In this document: piece after piece, positions 1 to 59,849 of the stretch | Position numbering within the stretch: position 1 is the stretch's first letter | Layout of the letters: every line of letters begins with the position of its first letter | DNA from: Candidatus Parcubacteria bacterium | GTDB lineage: Bacteria; Patescibacteriota; Minisyncoccia; Phycocordibacterales; JAKFXT01 | Assembly (NCBI GenBank): GCA_021414235.1 | Contig: JAIOOV010000003.1 | Span: 37,560 to 101,559, forward strand | Reading direction: 5' to 3' | DNA: 64,000 nucleotides | The notes under the pieces: model-generated | Seen by the model: only the letters and a program-made list of their open reading frames with translations | Databases searched by the model: none | Told to the model about the DNA's origin: nothing | Translations under genes and position numbers: made by a program

Positions 1-533
1 TTATTTTGTTTTTTTACACACTGATCGGTATTGTCCAGAGTGTAGCCACTATCGCATTCACAGCTTTTGTCAGAATTATTGTAGCTAGAATAGAGACCAA
101 ATTTCGTATGACAAACACTGTCTCCATAAGTGCATTGACCTGACGAACCGATCACATAACCATAGCTACATTTACAGGAGTTACTTAGTGAATCATAGCT
201 TGAGTTATACCCCAATTGATCATGACACATACTGTCCGCGGACACGCAGCTGTTGCCACTTACCACATAACCAAAATTACATTTACATGATGAAATACCA
301 TCGTAATAAGAGTTTGAAGGACAGGTAGGCGTAGACAATGCGGCAGAGTTGTAACTTCCATAGGACGAACCTCCACATCCACTGGTATACCCCAAGTCTC
401 CGCAGACGTAACTTCCGGTATCCGATGGGCAACTATGCCACCGATGACACCCAGATTGGTGTGCAGATACTAGGATAGGAATACAAAAAAATAACGCTAA
501 AAAGATTGCTAAATGTATTAAATTTTTACCCAT
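1..533 (-). CDS. Secreted cysteine-rich repeat protein, 3'-truncated by the window edge (>=177 aa). It has an N-terminal signal peptide and three ~40-aa modules of the form C-K/E-C-x2-G-Y...C.
   Basis: ATG is the complement of 531-533 and the reading frame runs off position 1 with no stop, which explains its absence from the ORF track. Manual translation: MGKNLIHLAIFLALFFCIPILVSA|HQSGCHRWHSCPSDTGSYVCGD...SCKCNFGYVVSGNSC...SCKCSYGYVIGSSGQC...SCECDSGYTLDNTDQC. The region is visibly AT-richer than the rest of the window. Confidence 0.55.
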   Translation of the reverse strand, partial: MGKNLIHLAIFLALFFCIPILVSAHQSGCHRWHSCPSDTGSYVCGDLGYTSGCGGSSYGSYNSAALSTPTCPSNSYYDGISSCKCNFGYVVSGNSCVSADSMCHDQLGYNSSYDSLSNSCKCSYGYVIGSSGQCTYGDSVCHTKFGLYSSYNNSDKSCECDSGYTLDNTDQCVKKQN

Positions 534-579
534 ACTTTAACTAGAATGGTACGCCTTTCAAGCCTTACCGCAAGCACCT

Positions 580-813
580 CTAAAGGGAGCCAGGAACGAC
601 GCTTACTTCTTCAAATTTACCTTCTAGATCAGCTATTCTTTGATCAAGACTATTAAAATCATCTTTTAAGGTTTTTAATTCCGTCTTCTGAGCCTCCAAA
701 ACTGCTGGGATTCGATAGATACAGAGACCTACGAACAATGCGAGTACCGCCCACACCGGCCAACGGATTACTCGCCACACTTTTCCTAGCCATCCCCGCA
801 GGGACATATTCAT
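580..813 (-). CDS. Small membrane-anchored coiled-coil protein (77 aa), hypothetical.
   Basis: ORF track; one predicted TM helix (WPVWAVLALFVGLCIY) followed by a heptad-like segment (LEAQKTELKTLKDDFNSLDQRIADLEGKFEE). Confidence 0.4.
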   Translation of the reverse strand: MNMSLRGWLGKVWRVIRWPVWAVLALFVGLCIYRIPAVLEAQKTELKTLKDDFNSLDQRIADLEGKFEEVSVVPGSL

Positions 814-881
814 ATCCGAATCCTACCAGGCCCAGTTATCTAAAGACCAGCTACTTCTTCACACCACCTGTCTTATTCAGA

Positions 882-1346
882 TTAGGAAGCCCTTTTCAGC
901 GCCTCTCTAGCCAAAAACTTCATCTCGGGAATGAGAGCGTACTGCGGATCTTCCAACTCTTCTTCTGTAAACCAGCGAATCTGATCATGCTCCTCTTCTG
1001 CCAGTACCATCTTGTCCGACTTAGCGCGAGCAAAGTAGGCCAGAGAGATATGCCGATGGGTGTCATTGAAATGATGGATATCCATGTATGCAGGAGTAGG
1101 CAGGAGCTTCCTGCGAGAATCCGTAGGATATCCTTCCATCCTTTTGTCTCCGATGAGCTCAATCTCAAGGCCGCATTCCTCTTTTACCTCCCGATACAAT
1201 GTCTCTTCCGGGTCCTCGTCGAGTTCAACGTGCCCGCCGACAGGAAGCCAGAGCTGAGCCTTCTTATGAAAAATCATAAGCACGCGGTTTTCAAAGACGA
1301 TCCATATCGTCACCACAAAATCAATCTTCTCGTGTATATGAGCCAT
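882..1346 (-). CDS. NUDIX hydrolase.
   Basis: Nudix box GGHVELDEDPEETLYREVKEECGLEIE (GX5EX7REUXEEXGU). Confidence 0.85.
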   Translation of the reverse strand: MAHIHEKIDFVVTIWIVFENRVLMIFHKKAQLWLPVGGHVELDEDPEETLYREVKEECGLEIELIGDKRMEGYPTDSRRKLLPTPAYMDIHHFNDTHRHISLAYFARAKSDKMVLAEEEHDQIRWFTEEELEDPQYALIPEMKFLAREALKRAS

Positions 1347-1349
1347 GCG

Positions 1350-1763
1350 TTATATCTCCCCGCTTATCTTTAAGAAAAACTCTTTGTCCTTAGGATGAGT
1401 CAGTAAATCTGCCACCTTGTCCCTAGCCACCCATCTAGCTTCAGGATTATGCGGATCGATAGGCTTCAGCTCCAGCTGGCTCGTCCTAAACAAGAACATT
1501 ATTAGCGTCTTCAACTCCGTCTGATCGTCTTCCTTGCCGTCCTTACCAATCTTGAAGCGCTGATAGCTCCCGAGGTCACGTACAAATTCAAGCTCAGTAA
1601 CACCAGACTCTTCGTGAATCTCCCTCTTGGCTGTAGTGAGCGCATCTTCCCCGTCATCAATATGTCCCTTGGGGAGCGACCAGGAGACTCCTTTCTGATT
1701 CACCACTAGAACTTCTCCCTGAGGGTTCAGCACTACTCCACCTGCGCTCTGGGTTTCTCTCAT
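1350..1763 (-). CDS. NUDIX hydrolase, second tandem paralog.
   Basis: Nudix box PKGHIDDGEDALTTAKREIHEESGV. Start taken at MRETQ (residue 31 of the track ORF) because the longer ORF would overlap the secA C-terminus; the secA stop lies 2 nt upstream. Confidence 0.8.
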   Translation of the reverse strand: MRETQSAGGVVLNPQGEVLVVNQKGVSWSLPKGHIDDGEDALTTAKREIHEESGVTELEFVRDLGSYQRFKIGKDGKEDDQTELKTLIMFLFRTSQLELKPIDPHNPEARWVARDKVADLLTHPKDKEFFLKISGEI

Positions 1764-1765
1764 TA

Positions 1766-4288
1766 TTATTTCTTCCCTGCCATCAAGCGCTGATGCTCTT
1801 CGGTATTCAAATCTCCGCACTTCTTCCACTTCTTGCCCGATCCGCACGGACAAGGATCGTTGCGGCCAATCCTGTCTCCCTCAGGCGTGATGGCAGAAGA
1901 CGGCAGAGCAGCGCCGGAGCCGTCTTCTGCACCAATGCGCACGGCTTGCTCGTGTACTTCGCGGAGACGCGTATTCTCAGCCTCACGGAAAGCGCCAGAG
2001 GTCACGTGTACCAGGAGCTTGCGAGCCTCATCGTCGATGGACATCTCCAGAGTCTTGAAAAGGCGTAGACCCTCCTTTTTGTACTCAACCAAGGGGTCAC
2101 GCTGGCCGTAGGCGCGCAAATTGACACTGTCCCTGAGGTATTCCATCTGCTCCAAGTGATCCACCCAGAACATATCGATGGTCTGGAGGAGAAGCCGGCG
2201 TGCGCCTTCGCAGAAAGCATCCACTCCGATCTCCTCCTTCCTCTTCTCTATAGCCGCCTCGAACTCGGCGTCTCCCGCAGAGAGCATGGCCACCTCTTCG
2301 GATATCTCCTCTACAGATCCGGTCAAGAGACGATGACGGCGGGAGTAGATGGAGGTGCGCTGGTGATTGAGCACATCATCGAATTCGAGCACGTGCTTAC
2401 GAGAGTCGAAGTGGAAACCTTCGATCTTAGTCTGCGCTGCTTCGAGCGAGCGGGTGATGAGACCGTTCTCGATAGGTTCGTCCTCCGGGATGCCGAAGCG
2501 GCCCATCATCTTCTTGATGGTATCGGAAGCAAACACGCGCATGAGGTCGTCCTCAAGAGAAACGAAGAACTGTGTCTCGCCAGGATCACCCTGACGGCCG
2601 GAACGGCCGCGCAACTGGTTGTCGATACGGCGCGCCTCGTGACGCTCCGTACCGAGAACAAAAAGACCTCCGAGCGTTTTGACCTCCTCGTACTCCTCGG
2701 CTGTCGCCGGGTTCCCTCCCAGTTTGATGTCCACGCCGCGGCCTGCCATGTTGGTAGCGATGGTCACTGCGCTCTTGCGTCCCGCCTGAGCGATGATCTC
2801 ACCCTCCTTTTCGTGGTTCTTGGCGTTGAGGATGGTATGCGGCACGCCTTCCTGTCGGAGATATGCGGAGAGGAGCTCGTTCTTCTCGATGGAGACGGTG
2901 CCGATGAGGACCGGCTGCCCTTTGGCGGAGAGTTCCTTGATATGGCGAGCCACTGCACGGAACTTACCCTGTTCCGTCTGGAAGATGAGGTCGTTGTGAT
3001 CCTTGCGGATAGCCGGACGATTAGTGGGAATAGCTACCACATCGAGGCCGTAGACCTTGTAGAACTCCTCAGTAGAGGTCATGGCCGTACCCGTCATGCC
3101 CGAGAGCTTCTTGTAGAGCCTGAAATAGTTCTGGTAGGTGATGGAAGCAAAGGTACGAGACTCTTTCTGCACAGAGACACCCTCTTTAGCTTCGACTGCC
3201 TGATGGAGCCCCTCAGACCATCGGCGGCCTGGCTGTAGGCGCCCAGTGAACTCATCCACAATGACTACTTCCCCATCCTTGACCACATACTCCTTGTCCT
3301 TAGTAAAGAGCGCCTTGGCCCGCACCGCGGTCTCTAGATGGTGTACAAATTTCACCCCTCCTTCCGTATAGATATTCTCCACACCAAGGAGCTTCTCGGC
3401 TTTGGTGATGCCGGAATCCGTGAGCACGATCTGGCGACGCTTCTCATCCACTGTAAAATCCTCCTCTTTAGTGAGGCGCGAAGCGATGCCTGCAAAGGTG
3501 TGATAGAGCTGCTCGGAGTCCGAGGTGGGTGCGGAGATGATGAGCGGAGTACGTGCCTCGTCGATGAGGATGGAGTCGATCTCGTCCACCACCGCATAGT
3601 GGTGCCCCCTCTGGCGAAGCTTGCTCTGCTCATATTCCAAATTGTCGCGGAGATAGTCGAAACCAAACTCGCTATTGGTGCCATAAGTGATATCAGCCTG
3701 GTAGGCCTCGCGGCGAGTCACCGGACGTAGGAATTCGCTCACGATACGAAACGAGCCTTCTGCATCACGCTCCTTGTCGAGATCGCGATGATTGGGATCA
3801 TAGAGAAAAGAAGAGTCGTGCGCGATCACGCCGACAGAGAGCCCCAGGAAGGAATAGATCTGTCCCATCCACACTGCGTCACGACGAGAGAGATAGTCGT
3901 TCACCGTGACCACGTGCACGCCTTTGCCCGCCAAAGCATTGAGATATACCGGAAGCGTCGCCACAAGCGTCTTACCCTCGCCAGTGCGCATCTCCGCGAT
4001 GCCGCGGCGATGAAGGACTTGTCCTCCCATGAGCTGCGCATCGAAGTGACGCTGGCCCAGGGTACGCTTGCCCGCCTCCCGCACGAGTGCAAAAGCCTCC
4101 GGCAGGAGAATATCAAGATCCTCTCCCCCCTCGGCACGGACCCGGAGCGCGGCCGTCTTGTCCCGCAGGGCTCCGTCAGGCAGGGATGCTATCTCCGCCT
4201 CTAGAGCGTTGATTGTAGCCACGGCAGGGGCCAAACCGCTTACTTTGCGGGCATTTCCGTCAGTGAGACTCTGGAGCCAGGAAAACAT
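1766..4288 (-). CDS. secA: Preprotein translocase ATPase SecA.
   Basis: 840 aa, canonical SecA motor (MRTGEGKTLVATLP, DEAD-like motifs) and C-terminal zinc finger CPCGSGKKWKKC. Confidence 0.97.
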   Translation of the reverse strand: MFSWLQSLTDGNARKVSGLAPAVATINALEAEIASLPDGALRDKTAALRVRAEGGEDLDILLPEAFALVREAGKRTLGQRHFDAQLMGGQVLHRRGIAEMRTGEGKTLVATLPVYLNALAGKGVHVVTVNDYLSRRDAVWMGQIYSFLGLSVGVIAHDSSFLYDPNHRDLDKERDAEGSFRIVSEFLRPVTRREAYQADITYGTNSEFGFDYLRDNLEYEQSKLRQRGHHYAVVDEIDSILIDEARTPLIISAPTSDSEQLYHTFAGIASRLTKEEDFTVDEKRRQIVLTDSGITKAEKLLGVENIYTEGGVKFVHHLETAVRAKALFTKDKEYVVKDGEVVIVDEFTGRLQPGRRWSEGLHQAVEAKEGVSVQKESRTFASITYQNYFRLYKKLSGMTGTAMTSTEEFYKVYGLDVVAIPTNRPAIRKDHNDLIFQTEQGKFRAVARHIKELSAKGQPVLIGTVSIEKNELLSAYLRQEGVPHTILNAKNHEKEGEIIAQAGRKSAVTIATNMAGRGVDIKLGGNPATAEEYEEVKTLGGLFVLGTERHEARRIDNQLRGRSGRQGDPGETQFFVSLEDDLMRVFASDTIKKMMGRFGIPEDEPIENGLITRSLEAAQTKIEGFHFDSRKHVLEFDDVLNHQRTSIYSRRHRLLTGSVEEISEEVAMLSAGDAEFEAAIEKRKEEIGVDAFCEGARRLLLQTIDMFWVDHLEQMEYLRDSVNLRAYGQRDPLVEYKKEGLRLFKTLEMSIDDEARKLLVHVTSGAFREAENTRLREVHEQAVRIGAEDGSGAALPSSAITPEGDRIGRNDPCPCGSGKKWKKCGDLNTEEHQRLMAGKK

Positions 4289-4348
4289 CTACCTATGCTA
4301 GCACATTAGGCCTCACTCCCGCAGAAAAAGCGTACCTTCAGCAGAAAA

Positions 4349-4376
4349 GCAAAAACCCCCGTAAGGGGGCTCTTGC
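4349..4376 (-). terminator. Rho-independent terminator (minus strand).
   Basis: gcaaaaaCCCCCgtaaGGGGGctcttgc hairpin. On the minus strand it is followed by UUUUUGCUUUUCU. Confidence 0.5.
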
Positions 4377-4400
4377 TTGAAGTGAGAAACCGAAGAGAAT

Positions 4401-4505
4401 TTATCTCTTCTTCTTTGCGGCCTTCTTGGCCTTTTTCTTCTTTGCCATATGTTTGGTAAGAACTTTTTTAATAACTTTTCGTCCGCTGCCGACCTCTCGA
4501 TTCAT
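4401..4505 (-). CDS. Candidate 34-aa lysine-rich small basic protein (MNREVGSGRKVIKKVLTKHMAKKKKAKKAAKKKR).
   Basis: Manual translation; below the 60-aa cutoff of the ORF track; has its own downstream terminator at 4349-4376. Function unknown (ribosome or nucleic-acid associated peptide?). Confidence 0.25.
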   Translation of the reverse strand: MNREVGSGRKVIKKVLTKHMAKKKKAKKAAKKKR

Positions 4506-4618
4506 CCCGATGATTACAAAAATTGTAGGTACTGAGGATGAGGAGATTTTTAGAGCGAACGCTCTGTGCGTATTATCATACGCGACGCATCACACCGCAA
4601 TATTTTTTCACGCGAATG

Positions 4619-4627
4619 TGTGGATAA
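4619..4627 (+). promoter_or_regulatory. Perfect DnaA box (TGTGGATAA, equal to TTATCCACA on the other strand) in an AT-rich 400-bp intergenic region.
   Basis: Exact 9-mer, extended match TGTGGATAAC shared with sites at 53610 and 62748. Confidence 0.45.
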
Positions 4628-4657
4628 CTTCGTATAAAAAATAAAATAGAAAATATT

Positions 4658-4684
4658 TGTGCGTAAAAAAATATTTTACGCACA
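4658..4684 (-). terminator. Terminator hairpin downstream of murB.
   Basis: TGTGCGTAAAA-aaata-TTTTACGCACA, 11-bp stem, A/T-rich flank, 9 nt after the murB stop. Confidence 0.5.
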
Positions 4685-4692
4685 CGTAATTT

Positions 4693-16307: not shown

Positions 16308-17747
16308 TTAGTACAGACCTTCAATTTCTTGCCTCCCCGCCCGTCCCAGCCAGAAGACACCGAGCAGAGTAGAGCCGAGAAGCGCTCCTAAGAGATAGAA
16401 CCACTTATACTCCCCCAAGTGCGATGAGGCAGCAGTCGTCGTCGGAAGAGATGCGGCGGCCACAGCCGCTACAACAGGAGAAGAGCGTTCGGGCACAGAA
16501 ACCCTGGTAGGAGCCTCCGGAGAGATCTTCGGCGCAGACCGCTGCGTAGCAACCGAAGAAACAACAACAGAGGAAGGAGCTGGAGTAGGAACAACGGAGA
16601 TAATGCCCTCTGCAGTGCTCGTGAGAGCGGGAGTCCCGTTTGGATAGCGAAGTTCTGCAGAAGGAGTGAAAGGAAGTGAGGTCACCCCTTCGGGGAAACG
16701 GACACTCTTCTTCGCGAGAAGGAAACTATCTTTCGGAAGAGTATACAACTTCCCTCCCGAGAGGAACTGCCAATACGAGAGGTCCACTTCCTCGCTTCCC
16801 CGGTTCTCAATCTCTAGGTACCCTCCGAGCGAATCCCGCCCGCTCCGCAGAGAGAGGTCCGCAGTGGCCACTGTTACGATGAGCTTGTCAGAGTTCGAGA
16901 ACTCTCCAGAAGAGACATCGAGGGTGGCAACGTAACTGCCGGGATAGTGGTAGGTATGGAGGACATGCTTCCCTTCAGCGTACGCTCCGTCCCCGAAGTT
17001 CCAGAGATAGCGGGCATTCTGGAGCGGCTTCTTATCAATCCCGAGCGCCTCTCCTATGAACTCCTCCGGAGTGCCTACGGTTACCGCTCTGTCATCCCCT
17101 GCATAGGAATAGATCTGCGGCTTAGTAGGCCATTTGGAAGAGCTGCCCGAGACAGGGGCGCTCGATTGGGTTACTGATGGAGTAGTCGAGGAAGTCTCTG
17201 TGGAAGTATCGGCAGAGGAAGATTCTGTGGAACTACTCGAGCTTCCTGCGGAAGATGAAGAGAGAGCGGATCCAGGCGTCGGGAGCGCTGCGATCCAGCT
17301 TCCCTCTGACTTTTGCAAACTCTTGCCATCACCTGCCGCACCCATCTCTGAGGAATAGGTGAACTGATCAATATCAAGGAGAGCAGTGTCCTTCAGTACG
17401 AGCGTCTCTCCAGTATTAGAAAGGGAGAAAGAACTATCGAAGATAGTTCCTGAGAACGACGGATTATCCGTCAGGAACTTAGCGGGGTTATCCGCAATAA
17501 TGGCGACACCTCCCGCAGCAAGCATCGCGTCCCCCTGGGAGAGGGTCAGAGCGTGGTTGGTCTCGGCTTCACGGAAGCGATAGTCGGAGACGTCTATAGC
17601 TGAGCTCCCGCTATTGCGTATCTCCACCCACTCCCGCCCACTATCACCCCCGGTCTCGAGGTCGTACATAACCTCGCTGAACTCTACCTGCGCGGAGGCA
17701 GAGAGTGGGAGAGCTATGGCGATGATCAGCGAAATTCGCGTGAACAT
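16308..17747 (-). CDS. Cell-surface protein: signal peptide, lamin-tail domain (LTD), Ser/Thr-rich linker, PKD-like domain, second LTD, C-terminal TM anchor.
   Basis: MFTRISLIIAIALPLSASA signal; LTD signature FSEVMYD...GREWVEIRNSGSSAIDVSDYRF and GGYLEIENRGSEEVDLSYWQF; PKD-like GDGAYAEGKHVLHTYHYPGSYVATLDVS; C-terminal WFYLLGALLGSTLLGVFWLGRAG. Start set at residue 23 of the track ORF. Confidence 0.7.
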   Translation of the reverse strand: MFTRISLIIAIALPLSASAQVEFSEVMYDLETGGDSGREWVEIRNSGSSAIDVSDYRFREAETNHALTLSQGDAMLAAGGVAIIADNPAKFLTDNPSFSGTIFDSSFSLSNTGETLVLKDTALLDIDQFTYSSEMGAAGDGKSLQKSEGSWIAALPTPGSALSSSSAGSSSSSTESSSADTSTETSSTTPSVTQSSAPVSGSSSKWPTKPQIYSYAGDDRAVTVGTPEEFIGEALGIDKKPLQNARYLWNFGDGAYAEGKHVLHTYHYPGSYVATLDVSSGEFSNSDKLIVTVATADLSLRSGRDSLGGYLEIENRGSEEVDLSYWQFLSGGKLYTLPKDSFLLAKKSVRFPEGVTSLPFTPSAELRYPNGTPALTSTAEGIISVVPTPAPSSVVVSSVATQRSAPKISPEAPTRVSVPERSSPVVAAVAAASLPTTTAASSHLGEYKWFYLLGALLGSTLLGVFWLGRAGRQEIEGLY

Positions 17748-17766
17748 AGACCGCGCCGCTTCGAAA

Positions 17767-19782
17767 CTATTCGAGCAGGCGCTTGAGTTCGTCTTCGGGT
17801 ACTTCGCGTACATGCGAAGCCTTGGGTCTTGGGGCAGGACGCTCAGCGGCTTGATTCGACTCAGGAGGATCTTCCCTTCTCTCTTCCTTCGGAAGCGGAT
17901 TAGGGGGAACAGGAGTCGCTTTCGGAGCAGAAGCTAGGCCGCTTGGATTCTGTTTCTTGAGGGCCTCCTGGAGCGCAGCATGGAGGAGCTCTTTGTTGGC
18001 GGTCTTGCCGCCGCGGACTTCCCCTTTCGGCTGGGGAGGTTTCCTGAGGCTTTCGTTCTGGGAAGGCTCGGATGAACGACTCGGGGCCGTTTTAGTCACA
18101 GGAGGACGCGGGGCTTGAGGCGCAGGCGTCTGGCTCTCTGACCTCGGAGGAGACGAGTCGCGTGGCGGTCTCGGCATCTCCGGCGGACGAACGACGGAGG
18201 GTTTCTCTACGGGAGGTCGATGAGCGGGTGCCGCAGCGGGAGGCACTTTGGGAATAGACGGTATGGAAGAAGCGTCTTCCTTTACCACAGAAGCAAGCAC
18301 CGCACGAAGGCCAGTGAGATGCTGCTTGGATTCAAAATTCTCGCGCTCTGCTTCGCGCACCAGCGCGGACGGAACGCGAGGGGCGTCTTCCCTCACAGAA
18401 GGCGGACGAGGCGTAGCTATAGGAGTCGGACGCGGAGCCGAGGTGGAAGCCGAAGGACCAGCAGCCTCTTTCGGCTTGAGGCTCGCCACCACCGCAGACG
18501 ACTGGGTCTGTTCAGCGATACTCACCTCCACCTGTGCACGCGGCTTAGCATAGACCATGCGCGAATTAGCGATGACACTATCCCTGAAAGAAAGCGCGGG
18601 AGCGGGTATCGGCGGCATGGTAGTGGCAGAAAAAGGCGTAGAGCTGACTCCGTCGATCATGAGCTTAAGATATATCTGGCGTATCCCTAGGTTCACGATG
18701 TCTTCGGCCAGGAAGTGTGGAGCGAACTCCTTCTCGAAGAGCTCTGCATCGATTGCCCCCACGCGGAAGGCGATCAGGGTACCGACGTTGCCGATGACTG
18801 CGGCACGCACTTCTTCCGACATCTGCTCCACGTACTGATGGGCGATGGTCAGATTCAACTTATACTTGCGCGCCTCCGAGAGGATGTCTGCGAAGGACTC
18901 GTTGGCGAAGGACTGGAATTCGTCCACGTAGAGATAGAAATTCGGGAGCTTAGCGAGCTTGTCTGCCGGCACATCCGCGCGGCTCATGGCCGCGAGATAT
19001 ATCTTGGTAATGAGCATGCTACCGAGGAGATTGGCATTGCTCTCCCCCACCTTGCCCTTAGAGAGGTTGATGATGAGGATCTTCTTCTCATCCATCATCT
19101 TACGGATATCAAAGGTGGAATTCTCCTGACCCACGATATTGCGGATGAGCGGATTAGAGGTGAACTGTCCCACTTTGTTCTGGATGGCAGGGGTCGCCTC
19201 CGCTGCGAACTTGTCCGTATACTTGGCGAACTCATCCACCCAGAAGGATTTGGTTCCGGGATCCTTCACCGACTCCACCACCTTGTTGCGGAACGCTTTG
19301 TCCGTGAGCATCTTGTTGATACCCATCATGGTGGCGCCGGGGAATTCAAGAAGAGCCAGCACCGTGTTCTGGAGGATGTACTCCATACGCGCAGACCAGG
19401 CATCCTCCCAGATCTTGTGGAAGGCACTCATGAGACCGGAGACCACTAAATGACGACGATCCGCACCGATATCCTCGATGACGTTGAAGCCGATGGGGTA
19501 CTCCATGTCGAAGGGCGCGAAATACAAAACATCCTTCACGCGATCTTCCGGTATGTAATCGAGGAGCTTCTCCGCAGTGCCGCCGTGCGGGTCGATGAAG
19601 GCGAGACCATCCCCATTCTGGATGTCCTGGATTGCCATGTTCTCGAGCAGGGTCGATTTACCCATGCCCGTCTTGCCGATGACGTAGACGTGCTTGGTAC
19701 GGTCCACCGCCTTGATGCCGAAGGGCACCTTCTTATTGCGCGTGTCGGTCAGGCCGAAATAGGTGATGCGATTGTCGTCCAT
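17767..19782 (-). CDS. Soluble VirD4/TraG/TrwB-like (type IV coupling protein family) P-loop ATPase with a ~260-aa proline-rich disordered C-terminal tail.
   Basis: Walker A IGKTGMGKST, Walker B LYVDEFQSF, TraG-D_C-like block KYKLNLTIAHQYVEQM...IGNVGTLIAFRVG. No N-terminal TM helices. Tail PRPTPIATPRPPSVREDAPRVP... Confidence 0.65.
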   Translation of the reverse strand: MDDNRITYFGLTDTRNKKVPFGIKAVDRTKHVYVIGKTGMGKSTLLENMAIQDIQNGDGLAFIDPHGGTAEKLLDYIPEDRVKDVLYFAPFDMEYPIGFNVIEDIGADRRHLVVSGLMSAFHKIWEDAWSARMEYILQNTVLALLEFPGATMMGINKMLTDKAFRNKVVESVKDPGTKSFWVDEFAKYTDKFAAEATPAIQNKVGQFTSNPLIRNIVGQENSTFDIRKMMDEKKILIINLSKGKVGESNANLLGSMLITKIYLAAMSRADVPADKLAKLPNFYLYVDEFQSFANESFADILSEARKYKLNLTIAHQYVEQMSEEVRAAVIGNVGTLIAFRVGAIDAELFEKEFAPHFLAEDIVNLGIRQIYLKLMIDGVSSTPFSATTMPPIPAPALSFRDSVIANSRMVYAKPRAQVEVSIAEQTQSSAVVASLKPKEAAGPSASTSAPRPTPIATPRPPSVREDAPRVPSALVREAERENFESKQHLTGLRAVLASVVKEDASSIPSIPKVPPAAAPAHRPPVEKPSVVRPPEMPRPPRDSSPPRSESQTPAPQAPRPPVTKTAPSRSSEPSQNESLRKPPQPKGEVRGGKTANKELLHAALQEALKKQNPSGLASAPKATPVPPNPLPKEERREDPPESNQAAERPAPRPKASHVREVPEDELKRLLE

Positions 19783-26791: not shown

Positions 26792-27331
26792 CTAGCCCCG
26801 ACTTTCAAAAGAACGAGAAACGAGAGAAACAGCAAGCAACATCAGAAGCGCGCTGATTGCCATCACCGGGAAGGTCACGTAACCGAATTCCTGGAAATAG
26901 ATCTTGGAGCAATCGGGGCCATTCGCAGCACACGGAAGCAGAGAGAGATTGAAGGTCTGGAGAAGCCAGTGCGCCCCAGCGAAGAAGAGGCCGAAAACGG
27001 AGAGCGGGAGCGTGTAGCGCCAGATCCCGTTATCTCTCCGAAGCCAGGCAATGAAGAAGAGGACCACCTGCGGATAGATGAAGATGCGCTGCCACCAGCA
27101 GAGCGTGCATGGCTCGAAACCGACGATCTCTGAATAGTAGAGACTCAAGACGAAGGAGAAGAGAGCGATGAGTGCCCCCCAGAGGAGCATGGGCCGCACG
27201 AGCGAGGCAGGCAGATAATCCTGCGGATATTTCCCGAATAGCATCCCCGCAAATACTGCGACAAGCGCGATGTCCGCCACAACAGTAGCGAAAGAGAGGA
27301 TCGTGGTGATGAGAGCTGCGTTCTCTGCCAT
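26792..27331 (-). CDS. Disulfide bond formation protein DsbB/BdbC family.
   Basis: Four TM helices with CTLCWWQR (CxxC...QR) motif and a second Cys pair (C...C) in the second periplasmic loop. Confidence 0.8.
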   Translation of the reverse strand: MAENAALITTILSFATVVADIALVAVFAGMLFGKYPQDYLPASLVRPMLLWGALIALFSFVLSLYYSEIVGFEPCTLCWWQRIFIYPQVVLFFIAWLRRDNGIWRYTLPLSVFGLFFAGAHWLLQTFNLSLLPCAANGPDCSKIYFQEFGYVTFPVMAISALLMLLAVSLVSRSFESRG

Positions 27332-27337
27332 AAGGAC

Positions 27338-27736
27338 TTAATTGGAAGCAGGCAGCGGACATCCTGTCTTCTCGGCAAGGATGGCAGGAGTAAGCGTCTC
27401 AGCATCCCTCGTGCCGTCCGCGAATTGCCAGGTAGGATAGCCGGTAACGCCAGCATCCGTGCAGACCTTGAGCTGCCCCTTGCCGTTCGGCGTGGAGCAC
27501 TCCACATACGGGAGAAGCTTGGCCGACTTGGCACCGAAGAGCGCCTTCTGCTCCTTGCAGTGCGGGCACCAGAACGCTCCATAGAAGGTCACCCCTTTCT
27601 CCTTGAGACACAAGGCAAGGCCGTCATACTGTCCCGGCGTGCGGGCATCGATGACGTACCAGGCTAGGAGTCCTCCGATGATGAGAACGGTGATAACGCC
27701 CCATACCCATTTAGCGGTTCGGTTCATAGGAAACAT
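27338..27736 (-). CDS. Membrane-anchored thioredoxin-fold thiol-disulfide oxidoreductase (DsbA/VKOR-Trx-like).
   Basis: N-terminal TM anchor; FYGAFWCPHCKEQKALFG active site (CPHC). Confidence 0.8.
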   Translation of the reverse strand: MFPMNRTAKWVWGVITVLIIGGLLAWYVIDARTPGQYDGLALCLKEKGVTFYGAFWCPHCKEQKALFGAKSAKLLPYVECSTPNGKGQLKVCTDAGVTGYPTWQFADGTRDAETLTPAILAEKTGCPLPASN

Positions 27737-27777: not shown

Positions 27778-28851
27778 TCAAGCCGACCATTTGGAAAATG
27801 AGCTGACAATGGTTCCGTATACCGGCAAGGAGGGCAGCCACGTACCAGGGAGCTGTACAGGAGAGGAGGTGTAATTGGCATTTCCAAAGCCTAGCTTGCC
27901 ATTCAACCCATGCCCCCAAAGCCACAATGAACCATCGGCTTTTAAAGCAGATGTATGAAAATTCGCTGCAAAAACAGAAACCCAGGTGCCCGCAAGCTGC
28001 ACTGGAGAAGAACGGTCAATAGTATCCCCGAGCCCCAAGCGACCACTCGCACCAGTGCCCCAGATCCACAGAGAACCATCGTCTTTAATGGAAGCTGTGT
28101 GATTTGCTCCAGCGGCCACCATACTCCACGAGCCAGATATCTGCACCGGAGAAGAACGGTCAGCAGTATCAGCAAGACCGAGCTTCCCAAGCGCTCCAGC
28201 TCCCCAGACCCACAGAGAGTTATCAGGTCTTAAGGCAGCACCGAACGCGCCGCCAAGTTCTACGATTTTCCATGTTCCAGCGAGCTGCGCTGGAGAGGAG
28301 CGATTCAAAGTATTTCCAAGACCCTGTCTCGCGTTAGTACCCGCACCCCACACCCACAACGTTCCGTCCGATCTCACACTTGAGCCGAAGGCGATGCCAA
28401 GAGATACGCTTTTCCAAGTCCCCGCGATCTGCACCGGAGAAGAGTGGTCTATTATGACCCCAAGACCGTGTCGTCCGCTTGTGCCATTACCCCATCCCCA
28501 GAGCGAGCCGTCTGGCTTCAGCGCGATTGAATGGGTGTTACCAAGAGAAGCGGCACTCCATGTACCAGTGATCTGCGTGGGAGAGGAGCGATCAAGAGTA
28601 TCTCCAAGACCGTTCCTCCCGTTGGCAGCAGCCCCCCATAGCCACATGGAAGCATCTGGTCGAAAACCGATGGAGTGAGCGTTACCGAGCGTTATCGCGC
28701 TCCAAGTGCCCGCAAGTTGCACTGGAGAGGAGCGGTCGGCCGTATCTCCAAGACCCATCCGGCCACTGGAACCCGCGCCCCATATAAAAAGATTGGGACC
28801 GATATCCTTAGCGGCAGCCTGAGAATTGAAGGACAACCGATCCGACAGCAT
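27778..28851 (-). CDS. RCC1/BLIP-II-type seven-bladed beta-propeller repeat protein.
   Basis: Seven copies of LW(V/L)WGxxxxGxLGLGDTxDRSSPVQ(I/L)AGTW; no evident signal peptide. Confidence 0.8.
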   Translation of the reverse strand: MLSDRLSFNSQAAAKDIGPNLFIWGAGSSGRMGLGDTADRSSPVQLAGTWSAITLGNAHSIGFRPDASMWLWGAAANGRNGLGDTLDRSSPTQITGTWSAASLGNTHSIALKPDGSLWGWGNGTSGRHGLGVIIDHSSPVQIAGTWKSVSLGIAFGSSVRSDGTLWVWGAGTNARQGLGNTLNRSSPAQLAGTWKIVELGGAFGAALRPDNSLWVWGAGALGKLGLADTADRSSPVQISGSWSMVAAGANHTASIKDDGSLWIWGTGASGRLGLGDTIDRSSPVQLAGTWVSVFAANFHTSALKADGSLWLWGHGLNGKLGFGNANYTSSPVQLPGTWLPSLPVYGTIVSSFSKWSA

Positions 28852-31646: not shown

Positions 31647-31794
31647 CGAGTATTACTATCCTTTCTTTTGTTCCGTTCTAACCGTCCTTTCCCGGTACGG
31701 TGTCGGTCGCTCCAATTTAAGGTTTAAGAGCGATTACCTACTTCTTGCGAAGTATCGGCCGATCAGTCCTAGGCTTGCGCCCGGACATTTCAAT

Positions 31795-33288
31795 TTGAAT
31801 AATTCCACGAACAGCTTCCGCTACCCGTGCCTTGTTACGACTTACTCCCTGTCACCGAGCTTACCGTGATCCCGCTTGCGCGGGGCTTCGGGTATTCCCG
31901 GCTCCCTTGAGTTGACGGGCGGTGAGTACAAGACTTGAGAACGTATTCACCGCGGTATAGCTGACCCGCGATTACTAGCGATTCCGGCTTCATGGAGTCG
32001 AGTTGCAGACTCCAATCTGAATTGGGGCCACCTTTCTAAGGATTTGCTCCGGCTCGCGCCATTGCGTCCCGTTGTAGTGGCCATTGTATCACGTGTGTAG
32101 CCCAGGGTATCTAAGGGCATGCTGACCTGGCGTCATCCTCTCCTTCCTCCCCCGCAGCTACGCACCTTTCTTTTTAGAAAAGCTGCGCAATTGCGGGGGC
32201 AGTCTCGCCTGACACTTGAAACAGGCAACGAGGGTTGCGTTCGTTACCCCACTGAAGGGAACAGTTCAAACCACGAACTGACGACGGCCATGCACCACCT
32301 GTCTAGCCGCCCTTGTGAGGCGCTAAATCTTTCGGCTTAGCTTCGTCTAGATTTCTAACCCTGGTAAGGTTCTTCGTTTAACGTCGAATTAAACCACATG
32401 ATCCACCGCTTGTGCAAGTCCCCGTCTATTCCTTTGAGTTTTAACCTTGCGGTCGTACTACCCAGGCGGTTTTCTTAACGCGTTAGCTTCGCCTCTCAGA
32501 GGGTCGATTCTCCGAAAAGCCAGAAAACAAAGTTTAGGGCGTGGACTACTGGGGTATCTAATCCCATTCGCTACCCACGCTTTCGTGTTTGAGTGTCAGA
32601 AATGCGCCAGCATGCTGCCTTCGCTTTCGGTGTTCCCCATAATATCAACGGATTTCACCCCTACACTATGAGTTCCGCATGCCTCTCGCACTCTCTAGTC
32701 GTACCGTTTCCCCCGCAGATCCAGGGTTGAGCCCCGGGTTTTAACAGAAGACTAATACGACCACCTACACACCCTTTACGCCCAATGATTCCGGATAACG
32801 CTTGGGGCCTCTGTATTACCGCTCCTGCTGGCACAGAGTTAGGAGCCCCTTATTCATGAGGTACCGTCAATTACTTCTTCCCTCATAAAAGACCTTTACG
32901 TCCCGAAGGACTTCATCAATCACGCGGCGTCGCTCCGTCAGGCTTGCGCCCATTGCGGAAGATTCTCGACTGCGGCCACCCGTAGGTGTATGGACCGTAT
33001 CTCAGTTCCATCGGTGGGGGTCAGCCTCTCAGCTCCCCTAAGCGTCGTCGCCTTGGTAGGCCATTACCCTACCAACTAGCTGATACTGCGCAGGCTTCTC
33101 CAGAAGCGATAAATCTTTACTCTCGCGAGACTATCGGGAATTATCCTGCCTTTCGGCAGGTTATGCCCGACTTCTGGGTAAATTCCTACGTGTTACTACC
33201 TCGTCTGCCGTGGGTCTAACCCACTCGACTTGCATGCCTTATCCACGCCGCCAGCGTTCATCCTGAGCTAGGATCAAACTCTAATAAA
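31795..33288 (-). rRNA. 16S rRNA, about 1.5 kb, no large insertions; transcribed alone, unlinked from the 23S-5S unit.
   Basis: 5' end ...UUAUUAGAGUUUGAUCCUAGCUCAG (plus-strand complement at 33271-33287); 3' region ...AAGUCGUAACAAGG plus helix 45 with a CGGAAG loop; many universal blocks (e.g. the complements of GTATTACCGCGGCTGCTGGCAC and GGACTACCAGGGTATCTAAT on the plus strand). Confidence 0.9.
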
Positions 33289-33562
33289 AGAGATGTTGTC
33301 GCGATACAAAGCTTGCGCCTTGTATCGGGACACTATATCCGTTCGAACGGAACAAGAGAAAAGATAGTCTTTACTCATGCGTTTCGATGGTACTCAGGAC
33401 TCCTGTTGATTAGACAGGATCCGAAATCATTTTTTGGAATAATTCTACTCCAACTTGCACAAGACCAATGTCTTGTTTGGCCCCTCGCAGCCGATGAGGG
33501 CGGAGGGGCTATGTCGTAACTTTTTCAAACATCAAGCCTCACCCATTCGTGAGGCAGGAATG

Positions 33563-41784: not shown

Positions 41785-41815
41785 ACGATCTAAAATGAGT
41801 CATTGAATGCTTTAA

Positions 41816-41929
41816 CCTGGCGACTACCTACTTTCCCCTTGCGAGTATCATCGGCACTACGGTGCTTAACGGCTCTGTTCGGAATGGGAAGAGGTGTGGC
41901 CACCGCGTTAAATCACCAGATTGAAGGAT
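41816..41929 (-). rRNA. 5S rRNA.
   Basis: Complement reads CUGGUGAUUUAACGCGGUGGCCACACC...CCGAACAGAGCCGUUAAGCACCGUAGUGCCGAUGAUACUCGCAAGGGGAAAGUAGGUAGUCGCCAGG, collinear with E. coli 5S. Confidence 0.85.
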
Positions 41930-42209: not shown

Positions 42210-45530
<3,321 letters not shown>

Positions 45531-45679
45531 GTCAGGAGATCTATGAATCACTACTTTGTTGTCTTACTTACCTGCCCCTCTCCATCGCCCTAAAAGACCC
45601 TTAAGCCCCGCTTGCGCGGGAAAAGGAGGCGGCGTGAGGGAATGAAGTTGTCAACGTTCGTGGATTCGGTCGATTCTCC

Positions 45680-49677: not shown

Positions 49678-52600
49678 TTACTTGGAGATGGTGACGGAAT
49701 CCATGTTGTCGGACGGAAGGCCCGAGACAAAGTATCCGTTGGTCCAGTCGTTGCCAGTCGTAGCAGACGTGGTGGTCGAGTTCGGAGACCAGACGAAGTC
49801 GTCATTGCCATCCGCATCGATTGCCACAGCGTCATCCATGAGAGCGGCGAGAGACGGGTATGCCGCATCTCCATCGATCTTAGTGATGACCTGACCGCTG
49901 GTTACGCCGCCCGTGAGAGTGACATCACCCTGTACCTTGAAGTAGTAGGTGCTGCCAGTCGGGATGCGGAAGTAGCCAGAGGAAGCGCCCGTTACAAGCA
50001 CATCGTTAGCACCGCTCGAGACGAGTCCGGCGATAGTCGTGTTGACCTGACCAGAAGTGGTGAAGCCAGAGACTGCCGAGCTGAACGAGCTATCGGTGTA
50101 GGCCATGATCTTGAGGTTCGTCACGGTCGTGGAAGAAGTTCCAGACGGAGTGGACGAAGTCGAGACGTTGACCGTGAACTTGTAGATGGAGACTCCGTCG
50201 CTGCCGGCCTGACCAGTAGAGGTCACGCTGAAGCGGTAGAGATCCATGCCGGACTGCGTGCTGAGGACGCTATTCGGGATGCTCAAGCGAGCAAATACCG
50301 GATAGGACTTCATGACGCGGATGCCGTCAACGTCGGAGTCCGAAGAGGAACCGGTGTTGAGGGTGGTGCCGGATTCAACGCCCGTACCCTGGGTACCCGT
50401 CGAGTCGTTGCCATCGTAGTCAACCTTCACGAGGTGACCAGAGGAAGTGGCGTTCTGGCCAGTACCAACGGTGCTCAGGTCAACCTTGACGGTGATGAGC
50501 TTGGTGCTGTCCTTAGGGACGCGGAAGGACTGGGTAAGAGTCGAGGTAGCCGTGCGATTCTCACCGGTGAAGGTGGCCTCGCCGACCTTAGTGGAGCCAT
50601 CCCAGAGGGAGACCTTCGTAAGGTGAGACGGGGTGCTCGAAGCGGCTACGCCCGAGAGCTGGAGAGCAACACGAGTGATGTCTACAGCTTCGTTGGTGCC
50701 TGCGAAGCGGAGTACGCCTGCAGTGACACCGGAAGTTCCGCCAGCCGCGATCTGGTAAGACGGGCTAGAAGAATCCTTGGTAACAGTGAACGAACCTGCG
50801 CCGATGGTCTGAGTCTGACCGGTAGCAGCCGTGACAGTCTCAGAGACGTCAGCAGAGGACGTTACGCCAGTGACCGTGATGGAAGGAGACGATGCGATAC
50901 CCCACGAGAAGGTGTTGTTCGTCACAGCAGAAGCCGAGACGTTACACTTAAGCGTAAGAGTCTTGATCGTGCCCTTCGAAACCACGAGGGACTGGTCGAA
51001 GGTGTAAGTCGCAGAGCCAGAAGCCGACGGATTGACCACGTTCGAGCTGTTGAGCGCGGTGGTGCCGTCGTAAAGCTGACAAGACGAGAGAGAGGTGGCT
51101 ACAGCCGATCCGCCGAGCGTGAGCGTAAGCGGGATCGAAGAGAAGCGCACATCCTCGCCAGACTGAGTCGCGTCAAGCTGGACGTTCGTGAAGATACGAG
51201 ACTGTCCACCAGGAACGATGGTCTGAGCAGCCGGATCGGACGAGATCGTGATGGCAAGAGCTGCGCCCTTGACCGTCATGGTGTTCATCGCGAACTGACC
51301 GTTCGAGAGAGTGATGCTGTTACCAGTAGTCTGACCGCGAACCGTCGTCCAGTTGTCCGAAGGAGTAGTGGACGCGATGTAGGTCGAGTTAGAGGCAACA
51401 CCAGTCGGGACCTTACCCTTGAGGGTGTAGGTCTGCTTGCCAACCGGGTAGGTGATGGTGTCCGAGAAGACAACCTTCTGGTTCGTACCGCCTACGGCAG
51501 TTGCATCTACCGGACCTGCGACGACCGCACCGTTCGAGTCAACGAGGGTAACGTTCGTGAGGAGAGCAGAAGAAGCTGCACCGGAAGTGGTGAAGTAGAA
51601 GGTAGAAGACTGGACAGTGATCGCCTCGCCCTTGATGTCGGTCTCATAGCCGCCGAGTACCTGGTTAGGCACGTTGACAGCGATGTTCTGAGAAGCGACA
51701 GAGGTGGCCTTGGCGATCGTGGTTGCAGTACCGCCAGTGACGGTCACGAGAGAACCGTGGAACCAAGGGGTACCAGCGGTGAACTCAGACGTGCTGTCGG
51801 AAGCAGAGCTTGCGCCAGCCGGAGGAGTCACGCCGTAACCGTAGGTCTCGCCAGTTGCGTAGACGTCAGTGCGGTTTGCGATGTCGAAGCGGACCGTGCG
51901 GCCAGCAGCGTTGCCACCGACGATGTCACCCTGGATGTAGATATCCTTGGAGAGACCCTTGTCGATGACGAGACCGGAGCCGAAGGAAGCAGTGACATAC
52001 TTACCATCTGCAGAAACCATGGTGTCGTAGCTCGTGCCATCTACGAAGACCTTGATGTTAGCGAGGTCAGTCGTGAGAGAAGCAGAACCGGCCTGGTTCC
52101 AACGAACGGACCAGAGGCGGAGCTTCTCGGCAGAACCCGCGGTGACGCGGACGCCGGCAAACTTGTAGCCAGTGGTGCCGATCTCCTTGCTTGCCGAAGT
52201 GTTCGGGTCAAACGAAGAGACAGCGTTGGTGATAGTACCGATTGTGAGAGACGCGTTGATGGTGTGACCTGCGCCGGCGATCGGGAGCGAGCCAGAGACC
52301 GTAGCAGAGGTGTTCACTGCGACGACCGAGAGCATTGCTACCTGACCAGCGTAGGAGTCAAGCGTCGAAGCCATGTTACCAGCGACAGTCACCGTCTTAG
52401 AAGTTCCCTTCTTGACGACGAACGGCTCGCCTACAGTAGCCTGGTTGTTCGAGTTGAGAGTCTTTGCGATGCCGATCTGAGTACCGTTCTCATCGAGGAG
52501 GACGATACCGTCGAAGACGGCGTTCTGAGCGAGACCGCCGCGCTCAACCACAAGGCTGTTGACCGTCACATCACCATCGTTAGACGCGGTGAGGACGACC

Positions 52601-59767: not shown

Positions 59768-59849
59768 TTTAGGAATTATAGCAAACTTCAATAGCTTCTC
59801 CTCTTGTCCTAAAGCGTAAGACGAGGCACAAGGAGCCGTCTCCTCCTCT

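What the first reader, a model, noticed from the sequence alone, without database searches (positions are those of the whole stretch)
1..533. Partial secreted Cys-rich three-module repeat protein in an AT-rich patch at the window edge (missed by the ORF track)
The ORF has no stop inside the window, so the track omits it. It encodes a signal peptide followed by HRWHSCPSDTGSYVCGD and three ~40-aa modules, each with the pattern S-C-(K/E)-C-x2-G-Y-(V/T)-x5-7-C, at least 20 Cys in total. The local base composition is clearly AT-richer than the ~57% GC of the rest of the window, which suggests horizontal acquisition or relaxed selection. A DsbB/thioredoxin pair (26792..27736) is present to oxidise such proteins. 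Candidate functions are toxin/bacteriocin-like, adhesin or EGF-like binding modules.
Basis: seen in the sequence. Interest (0 to 1): 0.5.

Follow-up and report, generated by a model that had tools for sequence, protein, structure and literature searches.

The report
Exported cysteine-rich surface protein of Parcubacteria
The window edge cuts through an intact 442-residue exported, disulfide-rich, multi-module protein from a small uncharacterised family found almost only in Patescibacteria; it is most likely a cell-surface stalk or adhesin, not a toxin or a decaying gene, and its codon usage is far more AT-rich than that of its host genome.

Summary
Window 533..1 (minus strand) encodes a signal peptide, the motif HQSGCHRWHSCPSDTGSYVCGDLGY, and three four-Cys modules. 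Each module matches the EGF_2 signature. The in-window part has 17 Cys, not 20 or more.

An identical public contig extends past the window edge. The gene is intact: 442 aa with 27 Cys. After module 3 come:
- a highly conserved ~90-aa beta-barrel domain with an OB-like fold and no close PDB relative;
- two more EGF-like modules;
- a Pro/Thr/Ser/Lys-rich spacer;
- a short aromatic-basic C-terminal tail, shared by 71 of 91 family members.

The beta-barrel family is small (136 cluster representatives among 1.84 billion) and almost entirely patescibacterial. The 29-aa head is a near-invariant, shuffled module that always follows the signal peptide. It is also fused to SH3, nuclease, G5 and Excalibur domains, including in Deinococcus.

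The AT-richness is real: GC 40.7% against 55.4%, and GC3 0.32-0.36 against 0.65. Family genes lag behind host GC generally, so transfer is plausible but unproven, and no mobile-element marks were found. Relaxed selection and the toxin reading are not supported. The DsbB/thioredoxin pair is confirmed.

Best reading: a Sec-exported, disulfide-stabilised surface stalk or adhesin. No part of the function has been tested.

The parts
1..533 (-). 5' part (codons 1-177 plus 2 nt) of a 442-codon gene. The rest lies beyond the window edge and was recovered as L001:2094-3422.
   Evidence: Translation. Logan contig SRR15633504_99165 is 100% identical to window 1-2626 and continues the ORF to a stop.
462..533 (-). 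Signal peptide, residues 1-24 (MGKNLIHLAIFLALFFCIPILVSA). Predicted cleavage is VSA|HQ, which leaves His as the mature N-terminus.
   Evidence: n-h-c layout read. AF2 models residues 3-21 as a helix. The motif begins right after an Ala at residue 15-117 (usually 26-45) in 75 of 111 related proteins. No signal-peptide predictor was available.
375..461 (-). Head module, residues 25-53: HQSGCHRWHSCPSDTGSYVCGDLGYTSGC (4 Cys, 3 His). A near-invariant, shuffled N-terminal module.
   Evidence: Searches show fusions to SH3, SNase, G5, Excalibur and PG-binding domains in Patescibacteria and Deinococcus. There is no Pfam or NCBIfam hit. AF2 pLDDT is below 50 here.
324..374 (-). Ser/Gly/Tyr-rich linker, residues 54-70.
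   Evidence: Composition. Low to intermediate pLDDT.
246..323 (-). EGF-like four-Cys module 1, residues 71-96 (C71, C83, C85, C96).
   Evidence: EGF_2 pattern. pLDDT 94-98.
132..227 (-). EGF-like four-Cys module 2, residues 103-134.
   Evidence: C120 and C122 are invariant in 91 family members.
18..113 (-). EGF-like four-Cys module 3, residues 141-172.
   Evidence: C158, C160 and C172 are invariant.
1..17 (-). First residues (VKKQN...) of the family-defining OB-like beta-barrel domain, residues 173 to about 260. Most of it lies outside the window.
580..813 (-). Upstream 77-aa gene (N-terminal TM segment plus coiled coil). It shares the AT-rich codon usage (GC3 0.40), so the compositional patch covers two genes. 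It is not a conserved partner of the family.
   Evidence: There are no homologues next to the family in the other fetched loci (L002-L038).
26792..27736 (-). DsbB and a membrane-anchored CPHC thioredoxin-fold protein. This is candidate machinery for oxidising the 26 mature Cys. It lies elsewhere in the genome and is not linked to the gene.

Best explanation
The gene encodes a Sec-exported, disulfide-stabilised, modular surface protein. It belongs to a small uncharacterised family found almost only in Patescibacteria (CPR).

Shown:
- The ORF is intact, 442 aa.
- The domain order is: signal peptide; a 29-aa His/Cys head; three EGF-like four-Cys modules; a conserved ~90-aa beta-barrel with two invariant Cys; two more EGF-like modules; a ~60-aa Pro/Thr/Ser/Lys spacer; a ~12-aa aromatic-basic tail.
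- The mature protein has 26 Cys, an even number.
- A DsbB/thioredoxin pair is present in the genome.

Inferred:
- After export and cleavage at VSA|H, the Cys are oxidised to 13 disulfides.
- The amphipathic W/F/K tail holds the C-terminus at the membrane or wall surface.
- The spacer crosses the envelope.
- The EGF-like modules form a stiff stalk.
- The OB-like barrel and the swappable N-terminal head sit distally and bind a ligand. The ligand could be a host-cell or envelope glycan, a protein, or a metal ion.

The AT-rich codon usage most likely reflects lateral spread of these genes among Patescibacteria from lower-GC donors, with slow amelioration.
For: - Intact full length.
- Signal peptide and head placement.
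- Modules: five EGF_2-pattern hits against 0.003 expected. pLDDT is 94-98. All top Foldseek hits are tandem EGF arrays such as NELL1, Pfs25 and EMR2.
- Family size: 136 representatives among 1.84 billion.
- Taxonomy: most of the 32 genome loci carry CPR names (Levy-, Doudna-, Nomura-, Paceibacteria, Kazan and others).
- Tail: 71 of 91 family members against about 2-3% of other ORFs.
- Other members replace the C-terminal part with SH3, PG-binding or SLH wall-binding domains.
- Neighbours are often other small exported or anchored proteins.
- DsbB/thioredoxin pair.
- Composition.
Against: - No experiment exists for any family member, and no paper mentions the motif.
- The head does not fold in AF2 (pLDDT below 50).
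- The tail's helical amphipathicity in this protein is only marginally above shuffles (9% of shuffles reach it). Its anchoring role is pure inference.
- No conserved gene partner points to a pathway.
- No mobile-element marks support transfer.
Confidence: 0.55

Rival explanations
1. It is an envelope-building element rather than an adhesin. The protein would act as a spacer or scaffold of the patescibacterial wall or S-layer zone, and the OB-like barrel would self-associate or bind the cell's own wall polymers.
Against: The family is rare (136 representatives), and only 32 of 185,579 species genomes matched the two peptide patterns used. It is therefore not a general envelope component. The N-terminal heads are swapped between members, which fits variable outward recognition better.
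Confidence: 0.2
2. It is a metal-handling protein. The invariant head, with an N-terminal His after cleavage plus two more His, four Cys and two Asp, would bind Cu or Zn. The protein would then scavenge or buffer metal at the cell surface.
For: The head always starts with His directly after the signal peptide and is nearly invariant across phyla. AF2 does not fold it without a ligand. In L004 the family gene lies about 2 kb downstream of a run of four genes (CsoR-like repressor, HMA P-type ATPase, HMA/DsbD_2 protein and a faint cupredoxin-like hit).
Against: Only 5 of 91 members of the barrel family carry this head, so it cannot define the family's function. The copper-gene proximity is a single case. 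In an oxidising compartment the four Cys are more likely to form disulfides. No metal-binding family matches.
Confidence: 0.12
3. It is a freely secreted toxin, bacteriocin or protease inhibitor (TIL-like).
Against: No immunity, ABC-exporter or processing genes lie nearby in any locus. There are no PADLOC or PHROGs hits. The 442-aa multi-domain layout with spacer and conserved tail argues against it. TIL domains have 10 Cys, these modules have 4.
Confidence: 0.06
4. It is a decaying or relaxed-selection gene, with the AT-richness coming from mutational drift.
For: Low GC3. The deposited annotation calls only a 316-aa product.
Against: The 442-codon ORF is uninterrupted. It is 67% identical to P0124 across the head, modules and barrel. 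All family-invariant Cys and Asn are kept. GC3 is uniformly low along the gene and there are no stops.
Confidence: 0.02

Closest known systems
EGF-like domains (PROSITE EGF_2 signature; Pfam EGF clan such as cEGF PF12662 and EGF_MSP1_1 PF12946), arranged in tandem as in NELL1, Pfs25/Pvs25, EMR2 and fibrillin
   Same: Each of the five modules has C-x-C-x2-G-Y-x4-8-C. The modules sit in tandem arrays on an exported protein. The top Foldseek hits are tandem EGF arrays. The best PDB sequence hit is fibrillin, E 0.058.
OB-fold small beta-barrels (PmrD, eIF5A/EF-P domains, cold-shock domains, PAN/Mpa inter-domain)
   Different: Sequence identity is 2-15%. The domain is extracellular and has two invariant Cys and Asp-rich loops (NLGTDFDLDTWD). 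There is no profile match to any PDB sequence or to Pfam. Its function cannot be transferred from these intracellular proteins.
Modular Gram-positive surface proteins: a stalk of repeats, a Pro/Thr-rich wall-spanning spacer and a C-terminal anchor, as in LPXTG adhesins
   Same: Signal peptide, repeated stalk modules, a low-complexity Pro/Thr/Ser/Lys spacer near the C-terminus and a conserved C-terminal element.
   Different: There is no LPXTG motif, no hydrophobic TM segment and no positively charged stop-transfer tail of the sortase type. Instead there is a ~12-residue W/F/K amphipathic tail. Whether it anchors anything is untested.
C-terminal amphipathic-helix membrane anchors of exported enzymes (E. 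coli PBP5/PBP6 type; from general knowledge)
   Same: A short basic-aromatic C-terminal segment without a TM helix on a Sec-exported protein.
   Different: No sequence relation was tested or expected. This is an analogy only.

Membership tests
EGF-like domain | Signature C-x-C-x2-[GP]-[FYW]-x4-8-C (PROSITE EGF_2, recalled from memory and applied as a regex) | tested here: met
   Three hits in the window part and five in the full protein. Shuffles give a mean of 0.003-0.008 and a maximum of 1.
EGF-like domain | Six Cys forming three disulfides per domain | tested here: not met
   Each module has four Cys, with spacing C-x11-16-C-x-C-x10-12-C.
EGF-like domain | A Pfam EGF-clan model above its gathering score | tested here: not met
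   cEGF 22.4 against 26.6, EGF_MSP1_1 13.5-15.2 against 27, Pvs28 10-14 against 26.
EGF-like domain | Fold similarity to solved EGF domains | tested here: inconclusive
TIL (trypsin-inhibitor-like) domain PF01826 | Model above the gathering score, with the 10-Cys pattern | tested here: not met
   23.4 bits against 24.5, covering only 21 residues. The modules have four Cys.
OB-fold | Small closed beta-barrel with a helix between strands 3 and 4 | tested here: met
   DSSP order on the model is E9-18, E23-28, E34-39, H45-50, E55-59, E71-74, E79-88. pLDDT is 89.3 (model of homologue P0124).
OB-fold | Significant structural match to known OB proteins | tested here: inconclusive
Sec signal peptide (SPase I type) | Basic n-region, hydrophobic h-region and small residues at -3/-1, with no lipobox | tested here: met
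   K3, then a 17-18-residue hydrophobic stretch, then V-S-A|H, read. The helix spans 3-21 in AF2. No dedicated predictor was run.
Sortase-anchored (LPXTG) surface protein | LPXTG motif followed by a TM segment and a basic tail at the C-terminus | tested here: not met
   There is no LPXTG and no hydrophobic segment in the last 80 residues.
Bacteriocin or secreted toxin locus | Adjacent immunity, exporter or processing genes, or a match to toxin or defence families | tested here: not met
   Neighbours are Nudix hydrolases, a 77-aa TM/coiled-coil protein, a 133-aa membrane protein, a PRTase and OMP decarboxylase. PADLOC and PHROGs are empty.
Horizontally acquired genomic island | Atypical base composition and codon usage | tested here: met
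   GC3 is 0.32-0.36 (target) and 0.40 (77-aa gene) against 0.65 +/- 0.08. Flanking genes are 0.55-0.73.
Horizontally acquired genomic island | Mobility marks: integrase or transposase, adjacent tRNA, flanking direct repeats | tested here: not met
   None within L001 800-4600. The nearest tRNA in the window is at 26.7 kb. No relatives of the barrel domain were found in IMG/VR viral contigs, and no match to the head in the phage collection.
Patescibacterial 'QNNVYF...NLGTDFDLDTWD' barrel family (unnamed, defined here) | Conserved ~90-aa domain with invariant N177, C212, N228 and C250, preceded by EGF-like modules | tested here: met
   Target residues 173-260 align at 60-76% identity to 98 proteins. 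Identity to P0124 is 67% over 297 aligned positions.

The most novel reading that the evidence does not exclude
Two short, strongly conserved elements of this protein could be new, general envelope signals:
1. The 29-residue AH[QR]SGCHRWHSCPSD[TS]GSY.CGDLGY head. It would be a new metal-binding or sorting/attachment module, placed at the mature N-terminus of many unrelated exported proteins in Patescibacteria and Deinococcus.
2. The W/F/K C-terminal tail. It would be a new sortase-independent anchoring signal of CPR surface proteins.

Together with the undescribed extracellular OB-like domain, the family would then be a host-recognition fibril of episymbiotic bacteria that is exchanged laterally between lineages.
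Probability: 0.2. Interest if true: 0.6.

Novelty: new variant of a known kind. Interest (0 to 1): 0.35.

Why it matters
Patescibacteria are tiny and mostly live attached to other cells, yet very few of their surface proteins are understood. This gene belongs to a compact family, largely restricted to that lineage, with clear and testable parts: a stalk of disulfide-locked modules, an undescribed extracellular beta-barrel, swappable N-terminal heads and a conserved C-terminal tail.

If the barrel or the head turns out to bind host or envelope components, the family would give a handle on how these cells attach. If the head binds metal or serves as a sorting tag, that would apply to hundreds of other exported proteins, including some in culturable Deinococcus where it can be tested.

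There is also a practical point. The deposited annotation of this gene lacks its first 126 residues, so the signal peptide and head are invisible in the public record.

Tried and rejected
- Exact 58-nt pattern scans of genome contigs and metagenome contigs, meant to extend the contig, found nothing. The extension came instead from an exact-protein look-up of the neighbouring Nudix gene.
I modelled the barrel from homologue P0124 and the in-window 177 aa instead.
- The afdb50 fold library was not available.
- Pfam, NCBIfam, PHROGs and PADLOC gave no match above threshold for the protein, its head, the alternative heads of relatives or the two small neighbours.
- PDB sequence searches gave only fibrillin at E 0.058 for the protein, and nothing meaningful for the barrel profile.
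- Three literature searches (CPR + cysteine-rich/EGF-like; the motif WHSCPSD; CPR + disulfide/secreted/surface) returned nothing relevant.
- A search for island boundaries found only short, chance-level repeats.
- The promoter and terminator scan was near shuffle expectation, apart from a strong hairpin after the 133-aa gene.
- No paralogue exists in the window.
- The neighbours have no homologues in the other family loci.
- No viral or phage copies were found: the barrel domain has none in IMG/VR and the head has none in the phage collection.
- Rejected readings: pseudogene, bacteriocin or toxin, TIL inhibitor, LPXTG protein, prophage remnant.

Full report
**1. What is in the window**

On the minus strand an ORF starts at ATG 533-531. 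An in-frame TAA lies two codons upstream, so this is the first possible start. The ORF runs off the window at base 1, giving 177 codons. Because it has no stop inside the window, the ORF lister does not report it.

The product reads as follows:
- A signal peptide, MGKNLIHLAIFLALFFCIPILVSA.
- HQSGCHRWHSCPSDTGSYVCGDLGYTSGC.
- A Ser/Gly/Tyr linker.
- Three repeats with period 37-38 residues.

Each repeat matches C-x-C-x2-[GP]-[FYW]-x4-8-C, the PROSITE EGF_2 signature as I recall it. Five thousand shuffles of the same residues give a mean of 0.008 matches and never more than one.

**2. Base composition**

- Bases 1-533 have 40.7% GC. The mean for 533-bp windows is 55.5%, SD 3.4%, and only 0.16% of windows are as low.
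- This is not just an effect of the Ser/Tyr/Asn/Cys-rich composition. With the host's own codon usage these residues would give 51% GC and GC3 of 0.63. The observed GC3 is 0.36, against 0.65 +/- 0.08 for 42 ORFs.
- On the extended contig, GC3 is uniformly 0.28-0.36 along the whole gene.
- The upstream 77-aa gene also has low GC3 (0.40).
- The downstream 133-aa gene (0.73) and the genes beyond it are host-like. The two Nudix genes upstream are 0.55-0.56.

**3. Recovering the rest of the gene**

Exact-pattern scans of the genome and metagenome collections found nothing. An exact-protein look-up of the adjacent Nudix gene did find a 40-kb Logan contig, SRR15633504_99165. Its first 2,626 bases are identical to the window, with no mismatch.

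The gene is intact: 442 codons, L001:2094-3422.

The organism is a deposited MAG named 'Candidatus Parcubacteria bacterium', with locus tags K8Q93_. Its annotation gives only a 316-aa product, MCE9643668.1, starting at an internal GTG at residue 127. The missing 126 residues are conserved in relatives: 67% identity to P0124 from residue 3 onward. The long ORF is therefore the real one.

**4. Architecture of the full protein**

| Residues | Element |
|---|---|
| 1-24 | Signal peptide |
| 25-53 | Head, 4 Cys and 3 His |
| 54-70 | Linker |
| 71-172 | Three EGF-like four-Cys modules |
| 173 to ~260 | Conserved domain, QNNVYF...GCYSSS...NLGTDFDLDTWDKIVLQ..ETCDIT |
| 263-283 | Short linker |
| 284-361 | Two more four-Cys modules |
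| 363-424 | Pro/Thr/Ser/Lys-rich spacer |
| 425-442 | Tail ending KKIGVWFRNLF |

The protein has 27 Cys, 26 of them in the mature part: 4 in the head, 5 x 4 in the modules and 2 in the conserved domain. All of them could therefore be paired.

**5. The modules**

An AF2 model of the in-window 177 aa, built from a 111-sequence alignment, gives pLDDT 94-98 for residues 71-177. Modules 2 and 3 each form a short helix followed by beta-hairpins; module 1 is strands only.

- Foldseek against the PDB returns only tandem EGF arrays at the top: NELL1, Pfs25/Pvs25, EMR2, uromodulin and MSP1-19. The scores are weak, with best E 6.5e-4 and TM about 0.2.
- No Pfam model reaches its gathering score: TIL 23.4 against 24.5, cEGF 22.4 against 26.6.

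So the modules are EGF-like by signature and by weak fold resemblance. They are four-Cys units and not demonstrable members of any curated EGF family.

**6. The conserved middle domain**

This domain defines the family.
- A search with residues 177-442 found 98 proteins. Most are 340-465 aa and match this ~90-aa stretch at 60-76% identity.
- In a 91-sequence alignment, C120, C122, C158, C160, C172, N177, C212, N228 and C250 are invariant.
- A profile search of 1.84 billion cluster representatives found only 136 at E of 1e-3 or better, and 99 at 1e-10 or better.
- A scan of 185,579 species genomes with two conserved peptide patterns confirmed 32 loci. Most carry patescibacterial names: Levy-, Doudna-, Nomura-, Moranii-, Staskawicz-, Pacei- and Peribacteria, Kazan, and 'Saccharibacteria'. 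A few carry generic or doubtful bin labels.
The model has pLDDT 89.3 and an E-E-E-H-E-E-E small barrel.
- A profile search of PDB sequences found nothing meaningful.

This is an extracellular OB-like barrel with no close solved relative. Its Asp-rich loops (DVDTD, GTDFDLDTWD, QDDDE) might bind Ca2+. That idea comes from the sequence alone and was not tested.

**7. The head**

The motif AH[QR]SGCHRWHSCPSD[TS]GSY.CGDLGY is nearly invariant in 75 of 111 aligned hits. It always begins right after the signal peptide.

It is fused to very different passengers:
- SH3 domains.
- Staphylococcal-nuclease domains.
- G5 domains.
- Excalibur domains.
- A copper-amine-oxidase-like stalk.
- Short proteins of 100-150 aa.

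It also occurs in Deinococcus, including SH3 proteins on two megaplasmids. It is absent from the phage collection.

Only 5 of 91 members of the barrel family carry it. The others start directly with modules, or carry other heads such as YVNGYYRSNGTYV... or AHPGNTASDG.... The head is therefore a shuffled module, not a family trait.

AF2 leaves it unfolded, with pLDDT below 50. No Pfam or NCBIfam model covers it and no paper contains the motif. Its function is unknown. The His at the predicted mature N-terminus, together with the other His, Cys and Asp residues, makes metal binding a reasonable but untested idea.

**8. The tail**

In 71 of 91 family members the last 14 residues hold at least three aromatic residues, at least two Lys/Arg and no acidic residue. 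Examples are KWYKKIFNWFK and KLWKFIWRF. Among other ORFs the figure is about 2-3%, and most of those are ends of membrane proteins.

The tail follows a long low-complexity spacer. There is no LPXTG motif and no TM segment. I read it as an in-plane membrane or wall anchor by analogy. This is inference. In this protein the helical moment is only marginally above shuffles.

**9. Gene context**

In this genome the neighbours are two Nudix hydrolases, the 77-aa TM/coiled-coil protein, a 133-aa membrane protein followed by a terminator-like hairpin, a phosphoribosyltransferase and OMP decarboxylase. A glycosylation cluster comes next: UDP-glucose dehydrogenase, GT4, a GT47-like enzyme, PMT_2 and GtrA.

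Neighbourhoods in the other fetched loci (L002-L038) differ. They often hold other small exported or anchored proteins, including ones with the same head or with Excalibur or PG-binding domains. The two small neighbours here have no homologues in those loci. There is no immunity, exporter, defence or phage signal, and no integrase, adjacent tRNA or flanking repeats.

**10. Why the gene is AT-rich**

Across 29 family loci, gene GC3 rises with host GC3 with a slope of only 0.47 (r = 0.77). In other higher-GC hosts the family gene is also conspicuously AT-rich:

| Locus | Host GC | GC3 deficit of the family gene |
|---|---|---|
| L016 | 58% | -0.30 |
| L027 | 53% | -0.15 |
| L011 | 46% | -0.23 |

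L016 sits in a different genomic position and has a different head.

At a host GC3 of 0.65 the regression predicts 0.42. The observed 0.32 is about two residual SDs lower. So part of the deficit is a family habit and part is specific to this genome.

The simplest reading is repeated lateral spread among Patescibacteria, mostly from low-GC lineages, with incomplete amelioration. A family-intrinsic bias cannot be excluded. Relaxed selection is contradicted by the intact, conserved ORF.

**11. Oxidising machinery**

**12. Verdict**

The finding is real and its description is largely right. The protein is a complete, exported, disulfide-rich modular protein of an uncharacterised, largely Patescibacteria-restricted family. 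It is most likely a tethered surface stalk or adhesin. Its EGF-like modules act as a stiff spacer, and its OB-like barrel, plus here a shuffled His/Cys head, acts as the binding end.

None of this function has been tested anywhere. The architecture is of a familiar general kind, a modular bacterial surface protein. The barrel domain, the head and the tail are undescribed. Interest is moderate.

Noticed in passing
window 1-533 / NCBI protein MCE9643668.1 (K8Q93_00225): The deposited annotation of this gene is N-terminally truncated. It gives 316 aa starting at an internal GTG (residue 127 of 442), so the signal peptide, the head and 1.5 modules are missing from the public record.
   Followed up: yes
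window 31793-33289, 41815-41920, 42214-45536: The 16S and 23S rRNA genes lie about 9 kb apart, with protein-coding ORFs between them. The 23S match spans 3,323 nt against a 2,925-position model, which implies an insertion of about 400 nt. ARAGORN calls an odd tRNA-like element with a 2-nt anticodon inside it, at 44173-44246. Unlinked rRNA genes with insertions are typical of CPR bacteria (general knowledge).
   Followed up: no
window 27781-28851 and 58343-59791: Two RCC1-repeat (beta-propeller) proteins. They also have unusually high GC at codon position 2 (0.56-0.60).
   Followed up: partly
window 16314-17813 and 49684-53178: Two further large proteins with surface-protein-type domains: one with lamin-tail and PKD domains, and a 1,165-aa protein with a PG_binding_1 domain.
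   Followed up: partly
window 4200-4690: A second AT-rich dip (about 41-43% GC) in the ~400-bp gap between secA and murB. Rfam found nothing there at gathering threshold.
   Followed up: no
L001 5505-11745 (beyond the window edge): A glycosylation cluster lies 2 kb downstream of the gene: UDP-glucose dehydrogenase, GT4, a GT47-like enzyme, PMT_2 (protein O-mannosyltransferase-like) and GtrA. The Ser/Thr-rich spacers of the protein could be O-glycosylated, which is speculation.
   Followed up: no
L004 7336-7854, L038 4781-5302, L010/L020/L033 neighbours: Family genes are often flanked by other small exported proteins. Some carry the same CHRWHSCPSD head (plus PG_binding_1). Others carry the motif GY.KPSTG.YV.PHY.TSPN...DN.STKGN.NPYTGKKG, which also serves as an alternative head or tail elsewhere.
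   Followed up: partly
L006 516-1829 (protein P0121): The nearest NCBI relative (AAB649_05035, 295 aa) is also under-called. The ORF continues upstream through a signal peptide and further modules.
   Followed up: partly
cluster of L001:2094-3419 in the protein collection: The 90%-identity cluster holding the target has a 55-aa representative (MGTGREAALGRNDV...) that looks unrelated to it. This is probably a clustering artefact.
   Followed up: no
P0030: The precomputed Pfam list names PF27023, which is not in the local Pfam copy. It might cover either the head or the NSY.SG..WYCN.GYKK repeats of that protein, and I could not check which.
   Followed up: no
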